IMG/VR virus record: IMGVR_UViG_3300049489_000776
Span: 1-55,910 of that record
Length of the DNA stretch: 55,910 nt
From: a virus
Taxonomy: Duplodnaviria > Caudoviricetes
Reading direction: 5' to 3' (one strand)
Below the pieces are notes generated by a model. The model was not told the DNA's origin. It searched no databases and saw only the letters and a program-made list of their open reading frames with translations. Below are positions 21,130-37,627 of the stretch, piece after piece. The position numbers and the translations under genes are program-made. Position 1 is the stretch's first letter; every line of letters begins with the position of its first letter.

Positions 21130-21335
21130 TTTAAATCTCCTTCTTTGGTTTCTAGTTTGGCGGTTTCTAGTTCTATAGCTCTGATTTGGGCGACCACGGA
21201 CGCTTTTAGGATGTAAGGACCCTTTTCAGCATCTGGGTACTTTACATAAAAGCCCGATTCTAGGCCTTTTGCGCGTCTTAAATCTTGCATGTTTAACTCT
21301 CGGTTTACTATTCTTGCAGGCATGTAGCGACTCAT
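21126..21335 (-). CDS. Hypothetical protein
   Basis: SD AAGGAG, ATGA overlap. Confidence 0.55.
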   Translation of the reverse strand: MSRYMPARIVNRELNMQDLRRAKGLESGFYVKYPDAEKGPYILKASVVAQIRAIELETAKLETKEGDLK

Positions 21336-22291
21336 TTTTTGGCTCCTTTGTTTGTTTTAGCTTCATATTGTTTTAAAGATTTTATAAAGCGGCCATAGGC
21401 ATTTATTTGAGCAGGGGTGTACTTTTCTTTTGTGCCTATTTTTCGAAAATTTTGTAGCCAGTATTTAAGAGTGCCTGTGTGACAACCTATTCTGAGGTGA
21501 CCTGCAAAGTAGCAGGCTAGATGCTTTTCAAATTGAAATTCTAGTTTTAGGCTACTTTTAATTTCTACTTTTTGCTCACTTTCCATTATATAGGCTCCGC
21601 TTAAATCGGCTCCGCTTAAATCGGCTCTGCTTAAATAGGCTCCGCTTAAATCGGCTTCGCTTAAATTGGCTCTGCTTAAATCGGCTTCGCTTAAATCGGC
21701 TCCGCTTAAATCGGCTCCGCTTAAATCGGCTCCGCTTAAATTGGCTCTGCTTAAATCGGCTCCGCTTAAATCGGCTCCGCTTAAATTGGCTTCGCCTAAA
21801 TTGGCTCTGCTTAAATAGGCTCCGCTTAAATCGGCTCCGCTTAAATTGGCTCTGCTTAAATAGGCTCTGCTTAAATCGGCTTCGCTTAAATCGGCTCCGC
21901 TTAAATCGGCTCCGCTTAAATCGGCTTCGCTTAAATCGGCTCCGCTTAAATCGGCTCCGCTTAAATTGGCTTCGCCTAAATTGGCTCTGCTTAAATTGGC
22001 TTCGCCTAAATTGGCTCTGCTTAAATAGGCTCCGCTTAAATCGGCTCCGCTTAAATTGGCTTCGCCTAAATTGGCTTCGCCTAAATTGGCTCTGCTTAAA
22101 TTGGCTCTGCTTAAATAGGCTCCGCTTAAATCGGCTTCGCTTAAATCGGCTCCGCTTAAATCGGCTCCGCTTAAATTGGCTTCGCCTAAATTGGCTCTGC
22201 TTAAATAGGCTCTGCTTAAATAGGCACGCACTCCAGTTTGTTCATTGTTTAACCAGAGTTGGTGTCGTTTTAAAACTTCTTGTAAGTTCAC
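21332..22291 (-). CDS. Pentapeptide repeat protein
   Basis: About 42 A(D/N/Y)L(S/G)(G/E/R) repeats; H.LWL N-cap; LRIGC...W C-terminal domain. Confidence 0.95.
   Translation of the reverse strand: MNLQEVLKRHQLWLNNEQTGVRAYLSRAYLSRANLGEANLSGADLSGADLSEADLSGAYLSRANLSRANLGEANLGEANLSGADLSGAYLSRANLGEANLSRANLGEANLSGADLSGADLSEADLSGADLSGADLSEADLSRAYLSRANLSGADLSGAYLSRANLGEANLSGADLSGADLSRANLSGADLSGADLSGADLSEADLSRANLSEADLSGAYLSRADLSGADLSGAYIMESEQKVEIKSSLKLEFQFEKHLACYFAGHLRIGCHTGTLKYWLQNFRKIGTKEKYTPAQINAYGRFIKSLKQYEAKTNKGAKK
21591..22225. repeat. 15-bp coding tandem repeat (~42 units)
   Basis: Units such as GCTTAAATCGGCTCC with a few single-base variants, no spacers. Confidence 0.95.
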
Positions 22292-22334: not shown

Positions 22335-22361
22335 TTATCGGTTTCAAGTCAAGATACTTTA
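22335..22361 (-). promoter_or_regulatory. sigma28/FliA-type promoter
   Basis: TAAA-N15-ACCGATAA upstream of pentapeptide gene. Confidence 0.75.
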
Positions 22362-24592: not shown

Positions 24593-24620
24593 GCATCGGT
24601 CAAGTTTAAAATGACTTTTA
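24593..24620 (-). promoter_or_regulatory. sigma28-like promoter of helicase operon
   Basis: TAAA-N16-ACCGATGC. Confidence 0.55.
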
Positions 24621-25877: not shown

Positions 25878-26345
25878 TTAAGCCGCCTTTTGGTTTTTTA
25901 AAAGTTCAAGAGCTGCTGATTTTTTAGAATAAGTGCTTAAAGCATGTGCAGCATAATTATAATCCATTTCAATTCCATACTGGCGAGATAGTCTTATTGC
26001 GTTTTTCCAAGCCCTAAGCTCCATGCCTGCCCCAAGCGCATCAGATTTAATCATGCGCTCAACGCTGTTTCCAAAGTCCATGTAATGACCCATTTCGTGT
26101 AGTAATATAGTATTATAGTGAAGCTCGGTTCTTGGCACATCTGTAAAAAACATGTAACGAACTTCATAAGTAAGTGGATTATAATTAATTCCACAAGCGT
26201 CAGGGTGAAAGCCATGAGAGTATAAAGGAACTGTTATAATCTTTATCCTCCTAAACCTCCAAAGCAGTCTAATAACTGGTGCTGAGATGTGCTTTACCTC
26301 TTTAATATTATGAATAAAATAGTCCACTCTGACCTCCTTTTTCAA
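25878..26345 (-). CDS. HExxH metallopeptidase-like protein (ImmA/IrrE-like)
   Basis: LLHEMGH ... ELRAW..A; start uncertain. Confidence 0.65.
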   Translation of the reverse strand: MKKEVRVDYFIHNIKEVKHISAPVIRLLWRFRRIKIITVPLYSHGFHPDACGINYNPLTYEVRYMFFTDVPRTELHYNTILLHEMGHYMDFGNSVERMIKSDALGAGMELRAWKNAIRLSRQYGIEMDYNYAAHALSTYSKKSAALELLKNQKAA

Positions 26346-26358
26346 TTCTTATATTGCT

Positions 26359-26386
26359 CTATCGGTAAACTTATTAAAACACTTTA
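26359..26386 (-). promoter_or_regulatory. sigma28/FliA-type promoter
   Basis: TAAAGT..N16..ACCGATAG. Confidence 0.7.
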
Positions 26387-26429
26387 GCAAATATTTGCAG
26401 ATTCTACAAGATTTATTTTTGCCAAAAAA

Positions 26430-26662
26430 GTCTCAAATTTAGGATTTTCTAAAACCAATTTAAGTTTTCAAATCCAAAAATGGTTTTCGTTTTTGGTTTT
26501 CCAGAACCGATTTAAGTTTCCAAAAAGTGGCACGCTTGGCACGTATCAGATTGAGAAATCCTAAAGTGAGACATGGCACGAATCTTGCTTGCACATGCAA
26601 TTTCCATGCCAACTCAAAATGAGACATGGCCTAAAAATTGCAATAATGCAAAATCGGTGCCA
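26430..26662. promoter_or_regulatory. Left array of sigma54 (-24/-12) boxes and TGAGAC palindromes
   Basis: TGGCACGAATCTTGCT 26574(+), TGGCATGGAAATTGCA 26596(-), TGGCCTAAAAATTGCA 26627(+), TGGCACCGATTTTGCA 26647(-). Confidence 0.8.
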
Positions 26663-26708
26663 AAATTGCCACTCGTGACCTCTAGGTCTCGCTGGTTAGC
26701 ATACTTAA

Positions 26709-26736
26709 GTATCGGTCAAAGGCTTTAAAAACTTTA
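26709..26736 (-). promoter_or_regulatory. sigma28/FliA-type promoter firing into left sigma54 array
   Basis: TAAAGTTT..N16..ACCGATAC. Confidence 0.65.
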
Positions 26737-26993
26737 AGCCTAAATTAAAAATAATTAAAATAATTTTAAGCTCAAGGCCTGCTAACCACTAACCTTGCTT
26801 AAGGCTTGCCGTGCTTGGCTTGCCCGTTTGACCTGCTACTGAGTCCTTGCCCAAGTTTAGGTCTAAGTCTTAGGCCCGGTTTAAGGTCTAAGTCTTAAGA
26901 CCGTGCTTAACCTTGCCTCAATAGGTTAACCTTAAGGGTTAAGCCTTGAGACCGTGCTAAGCATGGCCTGATAAGTTAATCTAAAATCTGCTC
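26737..26993. repeat. Non-coding short-repeat region (CTTAAG/TAAGxC/GACCGTGCT)
   Basis: AGGTCTAAGTCTTA x2, AGACCGTGCT x2, many TTAA-centred hexamers. Confidence 0.6.
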
Positions 26994-27464
26994 CTAAGGC
27001 TTAACTCCAATTTTGTCTAAGTATCTTAAGCACGCTGCAAGTCGAGGCCCCACAATAGGTTTTGAGCCCAAGTTATACCTGCAAGGCCAAGTCTTAGGTT
27101 CGCGTGACTCGTAGCGCCGTCTAAAATCGGCCAAGATTAAGGCTCCTGAATTAAGGTTGTATTTATAATCGTGCTTTAATCTTAGCGCGTCAAGTTTCCA
27201 AGTCTTAGCGGTCTGCCTATTAACTTGAGCCAAGCCAGTATCATGAGTTTTTGTGTTATAGGCTTGCAAGTCAAGGCGTGACTCATGAGTTACTATTGCT
27301 AAGTACAGACCCGGACTAAGACCATGCCTTAAGGCCGCTGCTTTAATTTCGTGTTTTATAACTTGAATTGAAACGACTTTAGGCCTGCTTAAGGCCGTGC
27401 TTTGAGTTGAAATAGGTATAAGAGGACCTGCTATAAGCAAGGCCCCTAAGGTTTTAAGTTTCAA
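26994..27464 (-). CDS. Lytic transglycosylase (SLT domain) with signal peptide
   Basis: AI..HES, D.GLAQVN, YN...GA.IL, YN motifs. Confidence 0.85.
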   Translation of the reverse strand: MKLKTLGALLIAGPLIPISTQSTALSRPKVVSIQVIKHEIKAAALRHGLSPGLYLAIVTHESRLDLQAYNTKTHDTGLAQVNRQTAKTWKLDALRLKHDYKYNLNSGALILADFRRRYESREPKTWPCRYNLGSKPIVGPRLAACLRYLDKIGVKP

Positions 27465-27896
27465 TTAATGCCCCATAACTTGAGCCATTGCAGTCTTGGC
27501 GAATAAGTGTCCATTAAGTCGTGTATTATTAAGCGTTGTGTTTAAGTCAACCTGCTTATATAAGCAAAAATCTTTAAGGTCTGCACCTAGGTTTAAAGCC
27601 TTAGCATGACTAATATCAAAGGTCAACTTCAAAACTATAAGCCCGTTTTTGGCTCTAGGCCAACGCTGCTTATAACCTACAGGAGCATAACTTGGCGTCC
27701 CGCGAATATTGGTCTTATCAAAAACTACATTTTTTATTTGAGCCATGCAATGTTGTAGCGGACATGATTTTTTTTTAATTAAATTAAATTGTTTAGCGTC
27801 TGTTGAAACATATACCTCAAAAATAAAAGAGTCTAAATCTGCCCCAAAGCATGGGTTTTTTTTAATGAATCCGGTCATGTTTTTTATATAGTTCAT
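27465..27896 (-). CDS. Hypothetical early protein
   Basis: SD AAGGAG. Confidence 0.6.
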   Translation of the reverse strand: MNYIKNMTGFIKKNPCFGADLDSFIFEVYVSTDAKQFNLIKKKSCPLQHCMAQIKNVVFDKTNIRGTPSYAPVGYKQRWPRAKNGLIVLKLTFDISHAKALNLGADLKDFCLYKQVDLNTTLNNTRLNGHLFAKTAMAQVMGH

Positions 27897-27926
27897 TTTT
27901 AAGTCTCCTTATTAATTGTTTAAAAT

Positions 27927-28760
27927 TTAAGCCGATTTTAGGACTCTGCAAGATTGCACCACAAAGCCCGACGTGTCAGACTTGGCCTTGCCTTTTGCAG
28001 TGAGTCCTACAATAATTCCAGAGCCATTGTTACCGTCTAAAAATCTTAAGTCGTGCAAGTCGCCGTCAATAACTTTAATGCCGTGATAGACTTCAGGCCG
28101 TGACTTAAAAACCATTGCAACATTAAGACCTGCGTCAAGCGCTGCCTGCCATTGCACTGCATTGCATTCTGAGGCACTAAATGTTATGTTATAATTTTTA
28201 TAAGTTTGAGACTTAAGTCCATACTGTAAATTTTTTGTATAATCGTAAAACTGAACGTCTGGAAACATTTCAAAAATGTTTAGACCTTGCACGCGGTGCG
28301 CAATCCAATTAATGTCAGTCGTGCCGTTAAGTCTTATAACTAACTGTTTACCGCGCTTAACTTTAGCTCTAAGCTTAGACACTTCGGCCATTGCATGCTT
28401 AACAAAGTCCGAAGTAAACTGTATATAATATAAAGCTTTTCTAAGTCTAGCTCGAGCAACGGAATCAAAGCGTCCCCGCCCCGCTGTATTTAAGCAAGCT
28501 TGCATGCAGCCCGGACTTGCATTAGGGCATAATGAACCACGTCTATTTAAAGCACTATAACCCATTGACGCTGGACTCATGTATAAGATATAAGACTCAT
28601 ACTTAGTAAACCTATTGTTTTTGGCTAATTTAGCACTTGAGGCCGCTGCAGTAAATAATTTAATTTTACTTAAAGCCGTTTTTAGTTTCTCAACTTGAAC
28701 GGAGTCCAATGTTTTTGCATCCTTAAGTCCTTCTATTTGCTGGTCAAGTGATTTGAACAT
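27927..28760 (-). CDS. GP88-like Cys-cluster (radical-SAM-related) phage protein
   Basis: CPNASPGCMQACL, RLNGTTDI, FYDYTK, DGDLHDLRF, GL.AKG.A. Confidence 0.8.
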   Translation of the reverse strand: MFKSLDQQIEGLKDAKTLDSVQVEKLKTALSKIKLFTAAASSAKLAKNNRFTKYESYILYMSPASMGYSALNRRGSLCPNASPGCMQACLNTAGRGRFDSVARARLRKALYYIQFTSDFVKHAMAEVSKLRAKVKRGKQLVIRLNGTTDINWIAHRVQGLNIFEMFPDVQFYDYTKNLQYGLKSQTYKNYNITFSASECNAVQWQAALDAGLNVAMVFKSRPEVYHGIKVIDGDLHDLRFLDGNNGSGIIVGLTAKGKAKSDTSGFVVQSCRVLKSA

Positions 28761-28792
28761 TTTTAATCTCCTAGTTAAGTGTTTATAAGAAT

Positions 28793-28821
28793 ACTATAAC
28801 ATGCAAATAAAAATCGTGCAA
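28793..28821 (-). promoter_or_regulatory. sigma70-type promoter
   Basis: TTGCAC-17-TATAGT. Confidence 0.65.
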
Positions 28822-28840
28822 GTGTTTTTTAAAATAAACT

Positions 28841-28869
28841 TAAGACCGCCCCGTTTTGAGGCAGTCTTA
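28841..28869 (-). terminator. Stem-loop after DUF932-like gene
   Basis: TAAGAC.GCC...GGC.GTCTTA inverted repeat followed by a U-rich run on the - strand. Confidence 0.5.
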
Positions 28870-28879
28870 AAATGAGACG

Positions 28880-29707
28880 CTAGGCTGCCAATTGAATGGC
28901 TAAGTCGAATGCTGCTTGATTCATGTTCAGTTGAGACGTAACACTTGCTAAGCGCTTTGTTTTGGTCGTAACCTGTTTAACGTCTATAACTTGGCCTTGA
29001 GCGTCCACAATATTTTTATTATAAGTGTATACAATGCCGCCCCGGAGCAAGCTCTCTTGTATACGATTAAAAACTGTATAAGCATCTTGAGCAGTATCAG
29101 CATTGCGTATAACACGATTCGCAGACTCATAGTCAATTGCTACGATATTCTTAACATTGCTTAATCTTAGGTCAACTAAGCTTGTAACTAGTTCATTCAA
29201 AGCAGTTTCAGTATAGCTTTGGCCTGCAAGACGCTCAACTACACTGGTTAACTCCTGAATATTAGAGCCCATGTATTGGATGCCAGTCTCTAAATTGGTT
29301 ATAAGATTGCCTGAATGCACAACTCTGAACGATTTAAGCACGCTGCCTGCTATAATACCATTTAAGCACGCAATCCTAAGCACGCCATAAAATAGTCTAA
29401 GAGCTGCACTACCGTCGTGAGAATTTAAGAGACACAATTGAGGCCGACTTTGGTTAGCTTGACTTAGGCCTTGAATACTCTGAAAGTCTGGATGCTCAAG
29501 TCTAACTATATGTTTTTGATAACCTTGTCTTAACTCATCTCTAGTCTTGGCTATCTGAGTATTTACAGGAGTCCAGCCTTGAGACTTAAAGGTTTCAAGT
29601 ACCTTGGCCGTGCTGATAAAGCCGTAACTCGGCTTAACTAAACTTGATGCTTGAGTCTGCTCAATTGGGTTTAGAGTCTGAGTCGGGTTTAAGATTAATG
29701 CATTCAT
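28880..29707 (-). CDS. DUF932/DUF945-like protein
   Basis: Y.FI.T, KH.VRL, LLNSHDG, R.AC.NG.I, TVFNRIQE.L.RGG. Confidence 0.85.
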   Translation of the reverse strand: MNALILNPTQTLNPIEQTQASSLVKPSYGFISTAKVLETFKSQGWTPVNTQIAKTRDELRQGYQKHIVRLEHPDFQSIQGLSQANQSRPQLCLLNSHDGSAALRLFYGVLRIACLNGIIAGSVLKSFRVVHSGNLITNLETGIQYMGSNIQELTSVVERLAGQSYTETALNELVTSLVDLRLSNVKNIVAIDYESANRVIRNADTAQDAYTVFNRIQESLLRGGIVYTYNKNIVDAQGQVIDVKQVTTKTKRLASVTSQLNMNQAAFDLAIQLAA

Positions 29708-29740
29708 TTTATATACTCCTTGTTTATTGTTTATAGTATC

Positions 29741-29767
29741 TTATCGGTCAAATAAAAATTAACTTTA
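29741..29767 (-). promoter_or_regulatory. sigma28/FliA-type promoter
   Basis: TAAAGTT..N15..ACCGATAA. Confidence 0.75.
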
Positions 29768-30028
29768 GTCTATTTTAAAATATTTATCGGCGTCTCGAAT
29801 CGGCTCAGCGTCCTCACGCTCCGCAAGCCATTCCATGTATAGCTTATTCAAGTCCTGCTTATCATATAGCAAGTCGCCGTCCTTATCAGTGTAAAACTCT
29901 TGAGCGTGCACTTCACCACAGCATAGTAGTGGCGGGTCAAGCTGATTATCGTCACCACAATATGGGCAAGCTATGGTCTTATTTAAAGTGCTTAAAAATA
30001 ATTCATATAGTCTTTTATCGTGTTTCAC
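29765..30028 (-). CDS. Zn-binding hypothetical protein
   Basis: CPYC...CCGEVH; SD AAGGAG. Confidence 0.6.
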   Translation of the reverse strand: MKHDKRLYELFLSTLNKTIACPYCGDDNQLDPPLLCCGEVHAQEFYTDKDGDLLYDKQDLNKLYMEWLAEREDAEPIRDADKYFKID

Positions 30029-30159
30029 TATTTTGCTCCTTGTAATTGGTTAACTACTGTTTCAATTGTGCCGTTGTTAAGTCCGTTCAAGGCAACTGCT
30101 ACTTGCACCGCTATCAATATTGCAATAATACTAAACCCGGTTACTATAACTTGTTTCAT
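30028..30159 (-). CDS. 43-aa single-TM protein (absent from ORF track)
   Basis: MKQVIVTGFSIIAILIAVQVAVALNGLNNGTIETVVNQLQGAK; SD AAGGAG; upstream TTGACT-17-TAACTT. Confidence 0.65.
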   Translation of the reverse strand: MKQVIVTGFSIIAILIAVQVAVALNGLNNGTIETVVNQLQGAK

Positions 30160-30229
30160 TTTTAAGACTCCTTGTTAATTGTTTATAATCTTAAGTTACA
30201 CCTTAAATAAACATTAGTCAACTAATAAT

Positions 30230-30577
30230 TTAAGGCGTCTCATATTTAGACGTATCAAGTGTCGCGTGCTTATCAGTTTTTAAGTTGAGCCATACAGTAG
30301 CAACCACGAACAAGTTACCCTTAGGTCTGCATACTATGACTAAGTCTTTAGTAGAATCGTAGGCCGTTCTATAGACTAACTTAAGCACTTGGCCATTGTC
30401 ATATTCAAGTTCAATGCAGCGTGCGTTATTAGTGTTTAATGACCTTGGCAGGACAATATTGCCCAAGCGGTCTGAAGTTGAGGCATGATGCGCGTGATTG
30501 CTATAAGTTAGCATAACAGTGCCTATTGATGGGTTGAAATTTTTTGGAAAGCCTAAGGTTACGTGGTATAGACTCAT
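30230..30577 (-). CDS. Hypothetical early protein
   Basis: SD AAGGAG; YSNHA...TVWLN...DKHATLD pattern. Confidence 0.65.
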   Translation of the reverse strand: MSLYHVTLGFPKNFNPSIGTVMLTYSNHAHHASTSDRLGNIVLPRSLNTNNARCIELEYDNGQVLKLVYRTAYDSTKDLVIVCRPKGNLFVVATVWLNLKTDKHATLDTSKYETP

Positions 30578-30608
30578 TTTATTTACTCCTTGTTTACTGC
30601 TAATTAAC

Positions 30609-30635
30609 TTATCGTCTATTTATAAATTAACTTTA
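30609..30635 (-). promoter_or_regulatory. sigma28/FliA-type promoter
   Basis: TAAAGTT..N15..GACGATAA. Confidence 0.7.
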
Positions 30636-30707
30636 GACCTTAAATGAGAATTGGTCAATTTATTTTTCAAATTAATTTTGTCTATATATTAATAAGCTTG
30701 CTTAAAC

Positions 30708-30736
30708 TTGACAACCTGCAAAAAGTGTGCCATTAT
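30708..30736 (+). promoter_or_regulatory. sigma70-type promoter overlapped by an antisense sigma54 box
   Basis: TTGACA-17-CATTAT; TGGCACACTTTTTGCA on - strand at 30717-30732. Confidence 0.65.
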
Positions 30737-31397
30737 GAGACTAACACTCTAACCCAGCTATACAAGCTATAGGATACTACACATGCGCCGCAAGAATCAT
30801 GCCAAGTACTCACAAAAATCCACCCAAGCCACCAAAAAACTACACAAAAATCCCAAAATGAAACAAAAGCGCTTGCAAAGTCCTAAATTTGAGACTTCTC
30901 AGGATGCTTATCAAGTCAAACAAGGCAAACATGGCAAGCATCCTGCGCGGTCTGGGCTCTGTCCCTGCAAAAACGAGACCAGTCCTAAACTTGAGACTTT
31001 AAAGCCTGCCTGCAAAGTCAAGACCAGTCCTAAATTTGAGACAAAGCCACCTTGCAAGATTCGTGCCAAGCCTCAAACACAACACAATAAACTTGGCAAG
31101 CATCCTAGCAAGTCTAAGCCTTGGCATGATTCTTGCAAGGTCGGTCTTAAATCTAAACCTGGCACAGTTCTTGCAAAGGAGCCAAAACGGGACGCAACTT
31201 GGCATGATTCTCCGCGTACAAAAATTGTCACTTCCCAAGATGAGGCGTCTCAATTTGGAGCACAAAAATCACTGCCCAGCTCTGAGAATCGGTCCCCTGC
31301 CACGCCACAAGGCTCAAGGCTTCAATTGGCACGTGGGGTCAAGGCCTTGGGCAAGGGTCCTAAGAAGTCTAAGGATAGACTTGGCACGAATCTTGCA
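30717..31397. promoter_or_regulatory. Right array of sigma54 boxes and GTCCTAAA(T/C)TTGAGAC palindromes
   Basis: GG-N10-GC boxes at 30717(-), 30789(-), 30932(+), 31053(-), 31122(+), 31160(+), 31382(+); palindromes at 30880, 30982, 31027. Confidence 0.8.
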
Positions 31398-31469
31398 AGG
31401 CGGCCTTCTAAGGTTAAACCTGCTAAGCAGCCTAAGACAGCTAAGGTTAAGCAGGTCCTAAGCGCTGCC

Positions 31470-31997
31470 ATGTTAGCTGGCCACAAAAAATCTAGTGATA
31501 CGCAGCGGGCTGCTCACTTGATTAAGAAATCTAAAGCTACTCCAAAGTTAGGCTCAAAGGCATTTAAAGACTTGCAAGGGGAGTGGTACGCTAAACTTAA
31601 GCAAGCAGGATTCGAAGATTTAGAGTCACTAAAATCGGCAGACGGGTTAGACGGTCTATTAAGTACACGTGGAGCTCAACCGCAAGCTAAGTTTGCCGAT
31701 GCGGCGCTTAGTGGGCGTGACTTATACTATCGTAGATTGACCAACTTTATAACTCATAACCCTAATTGGAGCGCCTCAAAGCTATACAACCTTGTGGCCC
31801 TGCTATATATTGAGGGAGTCTCTTATCGTAAAATCCTGCCTCAGGTTTATAAGCAGCTTAAGATTAAGTCCAATGTCTGGCGCATTCATAAGATAGTTAA
31901 GTTACTAGAGCAGCGTGCCTTAACTTGGAATAGAAGCCACCACGAGGGAATTGACTTTGTCTCAGATTTAGAACTTAATAAGAAGCTTCTAAAGTAG
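31470..31997 (+). CDS. Basic DNA-binding-like protein, candidate transcription regulator (3' part of ORF 30783-31997; start uncertain)
   Basis: LQGEWYAKLKQAGFEDLE and HTH-like LY.EG.SYR.I...L....WRIHKIV. Confidence 0.55.
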   Translation: MLAGHKKSSDTQRAAHLIKKSKATPKLGSKAFKDLQGEWYAKLKQAGFEDLESLKSADGLDGLLSTRGAQPQAKFADAALSGRDLYYRRLTNFITHNPNWSASKLYNLVALLYIEGVSYRKILPQVYKQLKIKSNVWRIHKIVKLLEQRALTWNRSHHEGIDFVSDLELNKKLLK

Positions 31998-32017
31998 CTT
32001 GACAAAGTTGCCGATAA
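31990..32017 (+). promoter_or_regulatory. sigma28/FliA-type promoter (overlapping a TTGACA)
   Basis: TAAAGT..N16..GCCGATAA, consensus -10. Confidence 0.8.
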
Positions 32018-33876: not shown

Positions 33877-34481
33877 GTGGATGATAAATTAACCTATGAG
33901 CAAATACAAATAACTTACCGAGACCTGTGCGCCGAATTAGGCCACTTGTCGCTAGTGCAAGAAAATACTACAAGCCGCTTACAAAGTATTAGGACGGCTA
34001 TTCAAGAGTTAGACAAGAAAGCTGCTGCGCTTAAAGAAGAGGAAGTTAAGCAGGCTTCCGCTGGACAAGCAGCAGATGCTAAAAACGCTGCGAAGCCGCA
34101 GGCTGAGCTGAAGTCAGTAGAAGTAACTGAAGAAGTTTCCAAATGAACGGACAAGACACTTCAGCAGCACACTCGGCGCTGCAATATATCATCTCTAAAG
34201 CCATGCTTGAAGGCAAGACTGGAAAAACTACTTTAGAAATTCCCATGACGGATATGTATAATGAATTTGAAGGGCCTCGCTTCACAAATGAGGCAACTGC
34301 TCTAGTTTTAAAACTCGAAATAGTAACTTCGTGGAACATGGGCTCACCAGAAGGTGACCTGGACATAGACGATGAAGGGGACATCGGCCTCGACGAATTT
34401 ATAACCGGCTCCGAAGATGAACTTGAAGATGATGAGTCTGAAGAAGACTCTGGAAAAGGAACTAAAAATGGACTCAATTAG
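33877..34481 (+). CDS. Two hypothetical genes (33877-34146 coiled coil; 34143-34481 acidic tail)
   Basis: SD AGGAG; ATGA coupling. Confidence 0.6.
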
Positions 34482-35025
34482 AAGTACTCCCAAAAACGTT
34501 TCAGTAAAGATACGTCCCGCTCTGGAAGCAGACGTTGCTTTTATTTTCTCCACCTGGCTCCGCTCTTACAGAGATTCAATCTTTGCTGCCAATATTAGCA
34601 CGACCGTGTTTTATGCAGAGCACCACAAAGTAGTAGAAAAGTTACTTAAGTCGTGCGAGGTTTACGTTGCATGCGCTGCAGATGATATATCAGAGTTATA
34701 CGGCTACATCTGTGCTCAAAAAATTGATGGTATTTTAGTGGTGCACTATGCTTACGTGAAGCACTCGTTCCGCAGACTAGGAATAGGTGCTCAGCTATTA
34801 GGAATGATTGATTATGACCCGACTAAGGCCTCAATTTACACACACTTGACTAAAACTGCACGCACTCTGGCAACTAAATATGGATTCATACATAGCCCGT
34901 ACATTGCCTTAACAGGAGAGTACCAAAAGGCAACTGCTACTCGCCTGCGCAAAGCTGATAAAGAAAACCTATACGGCGATGAGGCCAAGGAGCGTACCGA
35001 TGAATACTACGGAAAAATTAAGTAA
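34468..35025 (+). CDS. GNAT-family acetyltransferase
   Basis: IRPA...D, YAYVKHSFRRLGIGAQLL acetyl-CoA motif; start at MDSIR. Confidence 0.8.
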   Translation: MDSIRSTPKNVSVKIRPALEADVAFIFSTWLRSYRDSIFAANISTTVFYAEHHKVVEKLLKSCEVYVACAADDISELYGYICAQKIDGILVVHYAYVKHSFRRLGIGAQLLGMIDYDPTKASIYTHLTKTARTLATKYGFIHSPYIALTGEYQKATATRLRKADKENLYGDEAKERTDEYYGKIK

Positions 35026-35221
35026 GCCAGAGTTAGAGCTAGATGAAGTAGACGCCGCTCAAATGCTTGAGCAGCACCGCAAAATGAAGCAGACCCTAAA
35101 ACGGTTATCAAAAAATCAGTTAATTCAATTACTGCTAGAACAAGTTAACCAAACCATCGAGCAGCAGAATGTAAATCGCATTCTCCTTGAAGGTCAAAAG
35201 GAGTCTCAAAATGTTAAGTAA
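35000..35221 (+). CDS. Hypothetical coiled-coil protein
   Basis: SD AAGGAG before MNTTE. Confidence 0.55.
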   Translation: MNTTEKLSKPELELDEVDAAQMLEQHRKMKQTLKRLSKNQLIQLLLEQVNQTIEQQNVNRILLEGQKESQNVK

Positions 35222-35951
35222 ACTTACAGCCCTGCTTTTACTAGCAGCCCCAAGCTACGCTGCAGAGAGTAATCAAGGAGTTATTGCACTAACCTCTGAT
35301 AATACTGTCGTCTTCAGGGGCGTGGTTAATGGAAGTTCCGTAGCCACTGCTCAGGTAAAATTAGCCGAACAAATTAATAAGCGCGGTAAAAAGCCCTACC
35401 CTTTATATCTAGTACTAGACACTCCAGGCGGAGGAATCAGTGCAGGAGAAGATTTTATTCAATTTGCTAAACGGGTACGCAATCTGCAGACCATTACAAT
35501 TTTTGCAGCGTCTATGGGCAGCGCAATTGTTGAGGCGCTCCCAGGTAAGCGTTATGTAACCGAAAATGGAGTGCTAATGTTTCACCGCGCCAAAGGTTCC
35601 TTCGACGGCCAGTTTGAAGACGGCGAAGTTGAGAGTGAACTTGCTTTAATTAAAACCGTGGTTCGTTTCATGGAACAACGAAATGCAGACAGGCTTGGGC
35701 TGACTTTAGCAGATTATAAATCTAAAGTAATTAATGAACTGTGGGCACACTCTAAGGACGCAGTAGTTCAAGGCATGGTCGATGAAGTCGTGACTCTAGA
35801 CTGCTCCATGGAGCTAATCGAATCCCGCGTGCATGTTATAAACGAAGGCCTATTTGGTGGCACGGACTTAATGTTTAGCGGCTGCCCACTTATACGTTCG
35901 CCAATTCCTCAAGTTAAAATTGAACCAATAATAGAAGGGCTACCAGAATGA
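35211..35951 (+). CDS. ClpP-like (S14/S49) serine protease with signal peptide
   Basis: LDTPGG, AASMG, LMFH; N-terminal MLSKLTALLLLAAPSYA after AAGGAG. Confidence 0.82.
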   Translation: MLSKLTALLLLAAPSYAAESNQGVIALTSDNTVVFRGVVNGSSVATAQVKLAEQINKRGKKPYPLYLVLDTPGGGISAGEDFIQFAKRVRNLQTITIFAASMGSAIVEALPGKRYVTENGVLMFHRAKGSFDGQFEDGEVESELALIKTVVRFMEQRNADRLGLTLADYKSKVINELWAHSKDAVVQGMVDEVVTLDCSMELIESRVHVINEGLFGGTDLMFSGCPLIRSPIPQVKIEPIIEGLPE

Positions 35952-36196: not shown

Positions 36197-37627
36197 TTGA
36201 GTGCAATTTTAAAGGAACTAAAGAAGCGTGCACTTAAAAAAGAATTTAAAATCGAAGAGCACTGCTTTGATAAACAGATTGAATTCATTAGAGACCCTGC
36301 AAAGTTTAAGGACGCAGTATGCTCGCGTCGAGCGGGCAAAACTGAAGCTTGCGCTGCTGATTTATTCAACACCGCATTATTGCACCATAATGTTAACTGC
36401 CTATACATTACTTTAAGTCGCACCACGGCCAAGCGCATTATTTGGAAGTCTTTACTTAAGTTAAAGAAGGAATATGTAGAAGATGCTAAGATAGACGCTG
36501 TAGAGTTGTCTATCACATTTAAAAATGGTAGCACGATATACTGCAGCGGTGCTAAGGATGAAAGCGAGATTGAGAAGTTTAGAGGTATGGCTCTTAAAAA
36601 AGTTTACATAGATGAGTGCCAGTCTTTTAGACCCTACATTCAGCAATTAGTTGATGACATCATAATTCCCGCCCTCTATGACCACGATGGGTCGCTTATC
36701 TTAATTGGAACTCCTGGGCCAGTCAAGGCTGGCTACTTTTATGATGCGACTCATGGAGCTGGCTTCAGCCATCATAAGTGGACTATGCTTGATAACCCGT
36801 GGATTAAAATCAAGTCGGGTAAAGAACCTGCAGAGATTTTAAAACAGGAGAGGGAGCGCCGAGGTATCACTGAAACAGACCCAACTTATCTCCGAGAATC
36901 TCTAGGAAGGTGGGCTCAGGATTTAAACTCGCTGGTTTTTAGCTTTGACCCGAATAAGAATTTATATAACACACTCCCCAAAGGGCGTATGGAGTATATC
37001 TTTGGAATAGACATAGGATACAATGATGCAGACGCGATAGCCGTGCTTGGCTACTCCTATGAAGACAAATGCTGCTATTTAGTAGAGGAATTTTTGGCTC
37101 GCAAGCAAAATATTACCGAGTTGGTGACAGCCGTTAACAGATTACGCGACAAATACGCTCCAGTACGCATGGTAATGGACGCAGGCGCACTTGGAAAGAA
37201 GATTCAAGCCGAGATACAGCAGCGCCATGCTATACCACTTGAGGCCGCCGATAAGAATCGCAAGTTTGAATACATAGAATTATTAAACGATGACTTGAGG
37301 ACTGCTAAACTTAAGGCTCTGCCTAACTCTGCCTTCCAAGAGGACTCTCTTCTCACTGCTTGGGACAGGTCTACGCCTGGAAAACTCAAAATCTCAGACG
37401 TATACCACTCAGATATATGTGACGCGGTGCTTTACGCCTGGCGCGAGTGTAAACACTACTTGGCTGAGGCCGCTGTTCCTAAATTAGACAAGAATTCTGA
37501 AGCATACATGGTCGCTTTTGAGGAAAAATTGGCCACAGACTTACTTGAAAGTCAAAAACCAGACGAAGGTTATGGGTCAAAAGAGGACATGGCCTGGGTC
37601 TTTGGTGACACGGACGACGACTTCTAA
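36197..37627 (+). CDS. terL: Terminase large subunit
   Basis: Walker A SRRAGKT, Walker B YIDE, GTP motif, nuclease GIDIG, HSD.CDA.LY. Confidence 0.95.
   Translation: MSAILKELKKRALKKEFKIEEHCFDKQIEFIRDPAKFKDAVCSRRAGKTEACAADLFNTALLHHNVNCLYITLSRTTAKRIIWKSLLKLKKEYVEDAKIDAVELSITFKNGSTIYCSGAKDESEIEKFRGMALKKVYIDECQSFRPYIQQLVDDIIIPALYDHDGSLILIGTPGPVKAGYFYDATHGAGFSHHKWTMLDNPWIKIKSGKEPAEILKQERERRGITETDPTYLRESLGRWAQDLNSLVFSFDPNKNLYNTLPKGRMEYIFGIDIGYNDADAIAVLGYSYEDKCCYLVEEFLARKQNITELVTAVNRLRDKYAPVRMVMDAGALGKKIQAEIQQRHAIPLEAADKNRKFEYIELLNDDLRTAKLKALPNSAFQEDSLLTAWDRSTPGKLKISDVYHSDICDAVLYAWRECKHYLAEAAVPKLDKNSEAYMVAFEEKLATDLLESQKPDEGYGSKEDMAWVFGDTDDDF

What the first reader, a model, noticed from the sequence alone, without database searches (positions are those of the whole stretch)
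26430..31397. Two dense arrays of sigma54 (RpoN) boxes bracket the early cassette: candidate phage-borne sigma54/RNAP decoy or switch system
Seen: eleven correctly spaced TGGC-N7/8-(T)TGC boxes (GG-N10-GC), four in 26574-26662 and seven in 30717-31397. Degenerate copies lie at 26528, 26537, 31094, 31200 and 31327. I noticed no full match elsewhere. Boxes occur in both orientations. The left four form two face-to-face pairs only 6 and 4 bp apart, too close to be independent working promoters, and most have no gene behind them. Established: TGGCACG-N4-TTGCW is the sigma54 consensus, and sigma54 holoenzyme sits on it as a stable closed complex until an AAA+ enhancer-binding protein acts. No such activator is visible in this genome. 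Inference: the arrays may titrate host sigma54-RNAP, act as roadblocks insulating the early region, sense host developmental state, or anchor the first-injected DNA. I know of no described phage with this arrangement.
Basis: partly seen in the sequence, partly recalled or inferred. Interest (0 to 1): 0.92.

Follow-up and report, generated by a model that had tools for sequence, protein, structure and literature searches.

The report
Phage arrays of sigma-54 sites
An uncultured 56-kb phage carries two tight clusters of near-perfect binding sites for the host's sigma-54 RNA polymerase at the two ends of its early gene block; similar clusters occur in some relatives and in unrelated phages, and whether they are gated promoters or a polymerase trap is untested.

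Summary
The window is a whole 55,910-bp phage record. TGGC-N7-TTGC occurs 13 times, against 2.2 in shuffles. Ten copies lie in two clusters: 26574-26662 (four boxes, two face-to-face pairs) and 30718-31396 (six boxes, ordered - - - + + +). Spacing is strict and the consensus is the textbook sigma-54 -24/-12 element.

The phage encodes no recognisable sigma-54, activator ATPase or sigma-70-family factor. Box A overlaps a divergent sigma-70-type promoter pair. Boxes B-F lie inside the variable, probably coding 5' half of the first rightward gene, whose conserved C-terminal part is a helix-turn-helix domain.

Arrays occur in the three closest TerL relatives and in three of five loci of the helix-turn-helix family, with different numbers and orientations. 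More distant relatives have 0-3 boxes. Unrelated viral contigs also carry arrays, often between divergent genes.

Best reading (0.45): cis-acting docking sites for host sigma-54 polymerase, working as activator-gated bidirectional promoters that also compete with sigma-70 polymerase. A trans-acting sponge (0.25) is not excluded.

This scan has noted such arrays on other DNA (171 notes, at least 142 genomes). In print I found only single sigma-54 promoters in phage YuA.

The parts
26574..26588 (+). sigma-54 box 1 (TGGCACGAATCTTGC). It faces box 2.
   Evidence: sequence
26597..26611 (-). sigma-54 box 2 (TGGCATGGAAATTGC). It points leftward, toward the gene that starts at 26345.
26627..26641 (+). 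sigma-54 box 3 (TGGCCTAAAAATTGC). It faces box 4. It is part of a 53-bp direct repeat unit shared with box 1.
   Evidence: repeat family D3 of the left region
26648..26662 (-). sigma-54 box 4 (TGGCACCGATTTTGC). It points leftward.
26528..26543 (+). Two overlapping -24 half-sites (TGGCACG twice) without a -12 element.
   Evidence: sequence
30718..30732 (-). sigma-54 box A (TGGCACACTTTTTGC). It is intergenic and points leftward; the first leftward gene starts at 30577. It lies across the spacer of the rightward sigma-70-type promoter.
30686..30736 (.). Divergent pair of sigma-70-type promoters. Rightward: TTGACA-17-CATTAT at 30708-30736, 10 of 12 matches, with TG. Leftward: TTGTCA-17-TAATAT at 30714-30686, 9 of 12 matches.
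   Evidence: consensus scan only
30790..30804 (-). sigma-54 box B (TGGCATGATTCTTGC). It overlaps codons 3-8 of ORF 30783-31997 (peptide RKNHAK).
30932..30946 (+). Weak box (TGGCAAGCATCCTGC): GG-N10-GC spacing is kept, but the -12 element is CTGC.
31054..31068 (-). sigma-54 box C (TGGCACGAATCTTGC). It is identical to boxes 1 and F, and forms a 31-nt inverted copy of box F with flanks.
   Evidence: inverted repeat I1 of the right region
31122..31136 (+). sigma-54 box D (TGGCATGATTCTTGC), read in frame as WHDSC.
31160..31174 (+). sigma-54 box E (TGGCACAGTTCTTGC), read in another frame as GTVLA.
31382..31396 (+). sigma-54 box F (TGGCACGAATCTTGC), read as GTNLA. It lies 74 nt before the in-frame ATG at 31470, which opens the conserved domain.
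30783..31997 (+). First rightward gene (404 aa). The N-terminal half (about 230 aa) is basic, low in complexity and variable, and it holds boxes B-F. The C-terminal part (about 150 aa) is conserved, helical and ends in a helix-turn-helix.
30880..31042 (+). Three copies of the pseudo-palindrome GTCCTAAAYTTGAGAC, at 30880-30895, 30982-30997 and 31027-31042, interleaved with the boxes.
26430..26445 (-). A copy of the same pseudo-palindrome beside the left array. Weaker copies lie at 26559-26572 (+) and 26613-26625 (+), each directly before boxes 1 and 3.
26710..26736 (-). sigma-28-type promoter (TAAAGT...CCGATA) reading leftward into the left array.
30610..30635 (-). sigma-28-type promoter 33 nt before the start of gene 30230-30577. 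It completes a three-sigma promoter stack on the leftward side of the hub.

Best explanation
The boxes are docking sites for the host's sigma-54 RNA polymerase.

They act in cis at the two borders of the early cassette, as activator-gated, bidirectional promoter hubs. Holoenzyme binds each box as a silent closed complex. It fires only when a host enhancer-binding ATPase is active, because the phage encodes none.

At the right hub, boxes A, B and C face the leftward cassette and boxes D, E and F face the rightward operon. Box A also lies across the spacer of the rightward sigma-70-type promoter and next to the -35 of the leftward one. A docked sigma-54 polymerase and a sigma-70 polymerase should therefore exclude each other there.

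In the left array, two boxes face the replication module. The other two face a 330-nt gene-free stretch.

Shown here: the sequence, enrichment, strict spacing, orientation, overlap with other promoter-like sites, absence of a phage activator, and recurrence in other phages.

Inferred: binding by sigma-54, firing, the identity of the activator, and competition with sigma-70.
For: 1. Match and enrichment. TGGC-N7-TTGC occurs 13 times against 2.18 in shuffles. Ten copies lie in two clusters. Spacings N6 and N8 are absent from the clusters.

2. The signal is in the DNA, not in a peptide. The same word occurs on both strands and in three reading frames of ORF 30783-31997: WHDSC, GTVLA/GTNLA and RKNHA.

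3. A host factor fits best.
- Arrays occur in viral contigs of 32-57% G+C.
- In 147 distinct head-to-head pairs from 120 viral loci, the two positions my pattern left free after TGGCA are C/T in 99% and G/A in 96%, as in the sigma-54 consensus. In 111 pairs from bacterial genomes these positions are near uniform.
- The array-bearing loci fall into 8 unlinked groups, which include contigs of 118-354 kb.

4. Promoter-like geometry.
- The right array is ordered - - - + + + at the divergence point.
- Box A lies 141 nt before the first leftward start codon, stacked with sigma-70-type and sigma-28-type promoters.
- In L006, L010 and L017, tandem boxes are co-oriented with the small ORFs downstream.
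- Of 44 arrays with both flanks assigned, 26 lie between divergent ORFs.

5. Precedent. Development of phage YuA is stated to depend on host sigma-54, and a sigma-54-like promoter region (P015) was associated with a TSS mapped by ONT-cappable-seq (PMC5053324 and PMC10914365, passages).

6. A promiscuous activator lacking site specificity has been used to fire a whole sigma-54 regulon (PMC3844500, title and abstract start only).
Against: - No activator ATPase in the phage, and no upstream activator site that I can name.
- The face-to-face pairs place each predicted start inside the partner's box.
- Boxes 1 and 3 have no gene behind them.
- Boxes D-F lie inside a stretch that scores as coding: 0.15 in the ORF frame, against 0.19 for the conserved C-terminal part and -0.2 to -0.35 for known non-coding DNA. 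Their transcripts would be 5'-truncated.
- No Shine-Dalgarno sequence precedes ATG 31470.
- Among relatives, number, spacing and orientation are not conserved. L025 has three - boxes pointing at the 3' end of the helix-turn-helix gene, and L067 has five + boxes.
- Tandem periods of 25-28 bp in relatives are shorter than the roughly 30-bp closed-complex footprint (footprint recalled).
- The same phage places seven sigma-28-type promoters singly and canonically, so it does not need arrays to make a promoter.
- No expression data exist.
Confidence: 0.45

Rival explanations
1. Trans-acting sponge. The arrays never fire. Multiplied by phage genome replication, they soak up the small pool of host sigma-54 (alone or with core). 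This shuts the host's sigma-54 regulon while phage genes run on sigma-28-type and sigma-70-type promoters.
For: - The boxes are near consensus, with three identical perfect copies (26574, 31054, 31382), are dense, and occur in both orientations.
- Face-to-face pairs are useless as two working promoters.
- There is no activator in the phage.
- Every early or middle operon checked already has its own sigma-28-type promoter.
- Number and orientation drift among relatives while the presence of an array is kept in the closest ones.
- sigma-54 holoenzyme binds promoters in an inactive state (PMC4591121, abstract start).
- The low copy number of sigma-54 per cell is recalled, not checked.
Against: - A sponge should work anywhere and in any orientation. 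Yet the right array is ordered - - - + + + at the divergence point, and 26 of 44 arrays in other phages lie between divergent ORFs.
- Tandem arrays elsewhere are co-oriented with the genes downstream.
- Five more distant relatives with whole or nearly whole records carry only 0-3 boxes, so the trait is dispensable.
- No benefit of silencing the regulon is shown.
Confidence: 0.25
2. Roadblock or insulator. Stable closed complexes at both borders of the early cassette stop read-through in both directions, so the cassette, the replication module and the late operon stay separate transcription units. This includes the sigma-28-type transcript that starts at about 26700 and runs into the left array.
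For: - The arrays sit at the borders of transcription units.
- Alternating orientation would block from both sides.
- A sigma-28-type promoter at 26710-26736 reads straight into the left array, which is followed by a weak terminator-like hairpin at 26543-26531.
Against: - The cassette already has a strong intrinsic terminator at 28871-28839.
- Nothing here shows that a sigma-54 closed complex stops an elongating polymerase.
- The right array lies inside a gene that must itself be transcribed through.
Confidence: 0.12
3. Sites of a phage protein: for example the helix-turn-helix protein encoded at 30783-31997, or a small terminase using the arrays as a packaging site. On this reading the likeness to sigma-54 boxes is a coincidence.
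For: - The conserved C-terminal domain has a helix-turn-helix like sigma region 4 and like the small terminase of phage G20C (Z 7.3, rmsd 1.8 A over 54 residues). The tool warns that this is within the range of common helical arrangements.
- Three of five loci encoding this family carry four or five boxes beside the gene.
- No small terminase is recognised next to TerL.
- In 34 of 59 array-bearing loci a TerL gene lies in the held DNA, usually a few kb away.
Against: - A profile of the family (83 sequences) found nothing in three array-bearing viral records that are 95-100% complete (G001, G002, G005). It did find the family in G007 at E = 1.7e-32, so the search works.
- The free positions of viral pairs follow the asymmetric sigma-54 consensus.
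- Arrays occur in unlinked groups, including very large phages.
- This phage has two arrays 4 kb apart, one of them 9.6 kb from TerL.
- Small-terminase specificities usually differ between phages (recalled).
Confidence: 0.08
4. By-product: a repetitive protein-coding sequence or chance.
For: Boxes B-F lie in an open frame with coding-like codon usage. That region is repetitive.
Against: - The left array and box A are not inside any long ORF.
- The same word occurs on both strands and in three frames.
- Enrichment is far beyond all 300 shuffles.
- In the variable N-terminal halves of the homologues, the peptides that correspond to boxes are among the few conserved islands.
Confidence: 0.02

Closest known systems
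Bacterial enhancer-dependent sigma-54 (RpoN) promoters (consensus and examples such as glnAp2 and pspA recalled)
   Same: The -24 GG and -12 GC elements, the exact 10-bp spacing and the TGGCAC-N5-TTGCW consensus are the same. The holoenzyme is known to bind in a transcriptionally inactive state (PMC4591121, abstract start).
   Different: Bacterial promoters are single. They sit upstream of a gene and have a cognate activator with binding sites about 100 bp upstream. Here there are 10 to 11 boxes in two clusters, in both orientations, some face to face at 6-8 bp and some inside an ORF. No activator is encoded.
Sigma-54-dependent transcription of Pseudomonas phage YuA
   Same: A phage that relies on host sigma-54 and has no polymerase of its own. 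One sigma-54-like promoter region (P015) was associated with a mapped TSS (PMC10914365 passage; PMC5053324 passage).
   Different: Only single promoters are described there, not arrays or face-to-face pairs. The original paper (PMC2238194) is not held, so I could not read it.
Intragenic sigma-54 binding sites of E. coli and Salmonella (PMC4591121, PMC3844500; search listing and abstract starts only)
   Same: Sigma-54 sites inside coding regions and in either orientation, many without an obvious gene to drive.
   Different: As far as I recall, those are scattered single sites in a chromosome. They are not dense clusters at a phage control hub.
Tandem early promoters A1-A2-A3 of phage T7 (recalled)
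   Same: Several strong host-polymerase promoters packed into a few hundred bp at the head of the early region. The co-oriented tandem arrays in L006, L010 and L017 look like this.
   Different: The T7 promoters are sigma-70 promoters that fire without an activator, and all point one way.
6S RNA, a decoy of sigma-70 holoenzyme (recalled)
   Same: A nucleic acid that mimics a promoter and sequesters one form of RNA polymerase. This is the concept behind the sponge reading.
   Different: 6S RNA is a host RNA that mimics an open promoter. Here the candidate decoy would be phage duplex DNA aimed at sigma-54. No titration is shown.
Small-terminase binding repeats (cosB R sites of lambda, pac boxes of SPP1; recalled)
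   Same: Repeated short sites in both orientations, near the packaging genes.
   Different: Those motifs are phage-specific. This one equals the universal sigma-54 consensus, and it occurs in records that lack the neighbouring helix-turn-helix family.

Membership tests
sigma-54-dependent promoter | -24 GG and -12 GC elements 10 bp apart within TGGCAC-N5-TTGCW | tested here: met
   Ten strict and one loose match lie in the clusters. Other spacings are absent from the clusters. Counts are 13 against 2.18 in shuffles.
sigma-54-dependent promoter | Lies upstream of, and is co-oriented with, a gene or operon at a workable distance | tested here: inconclusive
   Met for boxes A and B (leftward cassette) and loosely for boxes 2 and 4. 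Boxes D-F are co-oriented but lie inside ORF 30783-31997. Box C is antisense to that ORF. Boxes 1 and 3 have no gene behind them.
sigma-54-dependent promoter | A cognate AAA+ enhancer-binding activator | tested here: not met
   PF00158 gives no match in six frames of the complete phage record, while it rings in all 14 control genomes. A host activator is possible, but the host is unknown.
sigma-54-dependent promoter | Upstream activator sites, usually inverted repeats about 80-150 bp upstream | tested here: inconclusive
   The pseudo-palindrome GTCCTAAAYTTGAGAC is interleaved with both arrays. It resembles the published FleQ box GTCaNTAAAtTGAC (PMC6120874 passage) but does not match it: the GTC and GAC half-sites are 10 nt apart here and 8 nt apart in the FleQ box.
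sigma-54-dependent promoter | Binding by sigma-54 holoenzyme and activator-dependent initiation | not testable with these tools
   This needs EMSA or footprinting and 5'-end mapping. No RNA run is listed for this DNA.
Phage packaging site bound by small terminase | Repeats recognised by the phage's own small terminase, one site per genome, beside the terminase genes | tested here: inconclusive
   No small terminase is recognised. The neighbouring helix-turn-helix protein is only weakly terminase-like or sigma-4-like (Z up to 7.3). There are two arrays, 4.8 and 9.6 kb from TerL. The family is absent from three complete array-bearing records.
DNA decoy or sponge for a host factor | Sites in excess of the factor that lower its free pool, with a function independent of position and orientation | not testable with these tools
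   Density and near-consensus quality fit this. The ordered orientation of the right array and the hub position argue for a dependence on position.

The most novel reading that the evidence does not exclude
The arrays are a DNA sponge for a sigma factor. As the phage genome replicates, hundreds of near-consensus sites strip the cell of its small pool of sigma-54 holoenzyme. This silences the host's sigma-54 regulon: stress, nitrogen and, in many bacteria, flagellar genes. Meanwhile the phage runs its own genes on sigma-28-type and sigma-70-type promoters. A bolder variant: the phage is wired into a flagellar sigma-54/sigma-28 cascade, and the GTC...GAC palindromes are sites of a FleQ-like host activator.
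Probability: 0.25. Interest if true: 0.85.

Novelty: new variant of a known kind. Interest (0 to 1): 0.66.

Why it matters
Sigma-54 is the one bacterial sigma factor that binds promoters but stays silent until an ATPase acts on it. Phage use of it is described in print as rare.

Dense clusters of perfect sigma-54 sites recur in many uncultured phages that encode no activator. This implies one of two things. Either these phages tie part of their programme to a host signalling state, or they capture this form of polymerase for another end.

Either answer would add a new way for phages to handle host transcription. It would also give:
- a sequence mark for host prediction, since the host must have rpoN;
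- a ready-made part for synthetic biology, namely a tightly gated bidirectional promoter or a sigma-54 sponge.

This window is a good test case. It shows both designs, an ordered divergent array and face-to-face pairs. It also has canonical sigma-28-type and sigma-70-type promoters in the same 5 kb as internal controls.

Tried and rejected
DNA search of 26300-31600 against named phages found no match. TerL against named phages reached only 24% identity, so no cultured relative or host could be named.

Rfam at gathering scores gave 0 matches and ARAGORN found 0 tRNA genes in the window.

The look-up of sequencing runs listed one DNA run (freshwater sediment metagenome, possibly the source) and no RNA holder. 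I did not use read laying, so there is no expression evidence either way.

Pfam and PHROGs gave nothing for ORF 30783-31997 or for its C-terminal part. The protein atlas gave only scores below 0.8. Foldseek against the PDB gave nothing at E <= 0.001.

The helix-turn-helix family was sought in viral contigs with alignment A1, which gave 1 locus. It was sought in metagenome contigs with A3, which gave 4 short loci. That is too few for a proper test of co-occurrence.

Absolute frequencies in viruses and bacteria therefore could not be compared. I compared only the make-up of the two samples. Many bacterial hits are palindromic repeat elements, for example in Leptospira, and are not sigma-54 arrays.

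RNA folding of the left array gave -40.3 kcal/mol (z -4.4) on the - strand and -31.0 kcal/mol (z -3.0) on the + strand. The pairing is box 1 with box 4 and box 2 with box 3, which any + - + - array of one motif would give. In 147 viral pairs the arms agree at fewer free positions (1.78) than independent arms would (2.27). I therefore rejected a hairpin or structured-RNA reading.

A Bacteroidota-type promoter reading of TAAATTTG was rejected, because the phage's genes carry strong Shine-Dalgarno sequences (seen) and sigma-70-type -35/-10 sites.

The sigma-28-type motif is not clearly shared by relatives: 0-3 loose matches per locus in 13 loci.

Literature searches found no paper on arrays of sigma-54 sites in phages. 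The library lacks most subscription journals, and supplements were closed. The claim is only that these searches found nothing.

Full report
WHAT THE WINDOW IS

The window is a complete IMG/VR virus record of 55,910 bp, with linear ends and a CheckV completeness of 100. It is a tailed phage. It has a P22/SU10-type portal, an SU10-type capsid protein and a large terminase at 36197-37627. It also has a family A DNA polymerase and a primase-helicase.

Genes from 30577 down to about 7170 are read leftward. Genes from 30783 onward are read rightward. No named phage is close. The DNA search found nothing, and TerL reached at best 24% identity. The only run that holds the DNA is a freshwater sediment metagenome. 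The host is unknown.

THE OBSERVATION

With the strict form TGGC-N7-TTGC the window has 13 matches.
- Four lie in 26574-26662, in the order + - + -.
- Six lie in 30718-31396, in the order - - - + + +.
- Three lie elsewhere, at 15852-, 20501+ and 23802+. This corrects 'no full match elsewhere'.

In 300 dinucleotide-preserving shuffles the count was 2.18 +/- 1.42 (maximum 7). The densest 700 bp held at most 2, against 6 observed.

Spacing is strict. N6 gives 0 matches, and N8 gives 5, none in a cluster. The consensus of the boxes, YTGGCAYGAWTCTTGCA, is the textbook sigma-54 -24/-12 element (consensus recalled). Three boxes are identical perfect copies (26574, 31054, 31382).

THE SIGNAL IS IN THE DNA

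Boxes B-F (30790-31396) lie inside ORF 30783-31997. The same word appears there on both strands and in three frames, giving RKNHA, WHDSC, GTVLA and GTNLA.

I searched 1.84 billion representative proteins with this ORF. It found 192 relatives at E <= 0.001, of which the best 150 rows were listed (149 besides the query itself). Almost all are 115-290 aa long and match only residues from about 185-265 up to about 400. Only three, P0002, P0004 and P0005, have a long N-terminal half.

In the alignment, the conserved islands of that variable half are the peptides that correspond to boxes. M-x-R-K-N-R/H-A-K at the start of 8 of 16 sequences matches the reverse box. G-T-N-L-A matches the forward box.

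The N-terminal half scores as coding in the ORF frame: 0.15, against 0.19 for the C-terminal part, 0.22 for TerL, and -0.2 to -0.35 for the non-coding stretch 26346-26993. A sigma-70-type promoter and an AGGA lie before ATG 30783. So boxes B-F are probably intragenic, in a basic, low-complexity linker that tolerates them. A stop-free frame scores better by construction, so this stays 'probable'.

SURROUNDINGS

Box A (30718-30732, -) lies across the spacer of a rightward sigma-70-type promoter, TTGACA-17-CATTAT (10 of 12 matches, with TG). It also lies next to the -35 of a leftward one.

I confirmed seven sites of the form TAAAGT-N14/15-CCGATA: 22336, 24594, 26360, 26710, 29742 and 30610 on the - strand, and 31990 on the + strand.
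- Six sit singly before a gene, in the right orientation.
- The seventh, at 26710, reads into the left array.
- The loose pattern gave 10 matches, against 3.1 +/- 1.5 in 100 mononucleotide shuffles.

This is a useful internal control. The phage builds ordinary promoters one per operon, so the sigma-54 clusters are a different kind of thing.

A 16-nt pseudo-palindrome, GTCCTAAAYTTGAGAC, is interleaved with both arrays. It resembles the published FleQ box but does not match it. A strong intrinsic terminator splits the cassette at 28871-28839.

WHO READS THE BOXES

The phage encodes no activator ATPase (PF00158), no sigma-54 DNA-binding domain (PF04552) and no sigma-70 region 2 or 4.

The neighbouring protein's conserved domain was modelled with AlphaFold2 (mean pLDDT 83). 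It is all-helical and ends in a helix-turn-helix. That motif resembles sigma region 4 and the G20C small terminase only weakly (Z up to 7.3).

Three of five loci that encode the family have four or five boxes next to the gene. However, a profile of 83 family members found nothing in three array-bearing viral records that are 95-100% complete. It did find the family in a fourth record at E = 1.7e-32.

I also scanned for head-to-head pairs.
- In 147 distinct viral pairs, the two positions after TGGCA that the pattern left free are C/T (99%) and G/A (96%), as in the sigma-54 consensus.
- In 111 pairs from bacterial genomes these positions are near uniform, and 15 of the pairs are perfect palindromes.
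- The arms of viral pairs are not complementary beyond the consensus (1.78 shared free positions, against 2.27 expected).

A universal host factor, sigma-54, is the simplest reader.

RELATIVES

Of 44 viral loci related by TerL, three have three or more boxes: L024, L025 and L029. The other 41 have 0 or 1. Twenty of the 44 hold less than 4.2 kb upstream of TerL.

These three are among the five closest by TerL (55-64% identity), and their portals are 64-67% identical to the window's. Their arrays lie in the same general place, between the early genes and the packaging operon. The designs differ: three - boxes at a 25-bp period, + + + - + - -, and + - +. L067 has five + boxes at a 26-bp period. 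L007 has nine boxes next to eight tandem 11-bp repeats.

Five more distant relatives were searched over their whole records, which are 82-100% complete. They have 1, 0, 0, 1 and 3 boxes, against 10 here. The trait is therefore kept in a sub-lineage, evolves quickly and is dispensable.

More widely, 59 loci have at least four boxes per 500 bp.
- They form 8 unlinked groups. One group holds 48 loci, and 34 loci have a TerL gene nearby.
- Of 44 arrays with both flanks assigned, 26 lie between divergent ORFs, 12 between co-oriented ORFs and 6 between convergent ones. Fifteen had a flank missing. The loci are not independent, and the ORF calls are crude.

MECHANISM

I favour cis-acting docking sites that work as activator-gated bidirectional promoters (0.45). 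At box A they would also compete with sigma-70 polymerase. The reasons:
- the ordered orientation at the divergence point;
- the promoter stack on the leftward side;
- the co-oriented tandem arrays in L006, L010 and L017;
- the hub position in other phages;
- the YuA precedent.

Against this reading stand the face-to-face pairs, two boxes with no gene behind them, the boxes inside an ORF, the unconserved orientation among relatives, and the missing activator.

A trans-acting sponge (0.25) and a roadblock (0.12) remain open. A phage-protein site (0.08) and a by-product (0.02) are unlikely. Nothing here shows binding or transcription.

NOVELTY

This scan has noted sigma-54 arrays in phages before, on other DNA: 171 notes in at least 142 genomes. 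My tests of recurrence are my own, and they agree with those notes.

In print, from passages read, I found that phage use of sigma-54 is 'rare' but known for YuA. I found nothing on arrays in five searches. I class this as a new variant of a known kind.

Noticed in passing
window 22336-22361(-), 24594-24618(-), 26360-26386(-), 26710-26736(-), 29742-29767(-), 30610-30635(-), 31990-32016(+): Seven sigma-28 (FliA)-type promoters, TAAAGT-N14/15-CCGATA. Six sit singly before a gene in the right orientation. The one at 26710 reads into the left sigma-54 array. Together with the sigma-54 boxes this hints at a host with a sigma-54/sigma-28 flagellar cascade. The relatives do not clearly share the motif.
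   Followed up: partly
window 26430-26445(-), 26559-26572(+), 30880-30895, 30982-30997, 31027-31042(+), 31247-31261(-); weaker copies at 28863-28888 and 30227-30252: A pseudo-palindrome, GTCCTAAAYTTGAGAC, interleaved with both arrays and also found just after two gene ends. TGAGAC occurs 33 times, against 18.3 +/- 4.3 in shuffles. It resembles the FleQ box quoted in PMC6120874 but does not match it. It could be the site of a dimeric regulator.
   Followed up: partly
window 31470-31994 (C-terminal part of ORF 30783-31997): A conserved domain of about 150 aa, with no Pfam or PHROG match and 192 relatives at E <= 0.001. It has the motifs WYxKLxxxGFxDLE and YYRRLTNFxTHNPxW. The model is all-helical with a C-terminal helix-turn-helix (pLDDT 83). 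It often sits next to sigma-54 boxes.
   Followed up: partly
window 26422-26524: Two direct repeats of 51-52 bp (73% alike) between the left array and the next leftward gene, followed by an A+T-rich stretch at about 26725-26775. This looks origin-like.
   Followed up: no
L007 9130-9215: Eight tandem copies of an 11-bp unit (GTTCTTACAAT), iteron-like, directly beside a nine-box sigma-54 array in a distant relative.
   Followed up: no
window 28839-28871 (-): A strong intrinsic terminator (14-bp stem, T run) splits the 'early cassette' into two units, between the DUF932 gene and the GP88-family gene.
   Followed up: no
L200, L202, L208, L215, L231, L241 and other Leptospira loci: A G+C-rich palindromic repeat element, present in many copies in saprophytic Leptospira genomes, matches the head-to-head pattern by chance of its ends. 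It is not a sigma-54 array.
   Followed up: partly
window 34417-35951: A GNAT acetyltransferase (34417-35025) and a ClpP-like head maturation protease (35187-35951) lie directly upstream of TerL. No small terminase was recognised.
   Followed up: no
window 21332-22291 (-): A 319-aa pentapeptide-repeat protein (Pfam E = 1.5e-78) with its own sigma-28-type promoter. Proteins of this kind can mimic DNA.
   Followed up: no
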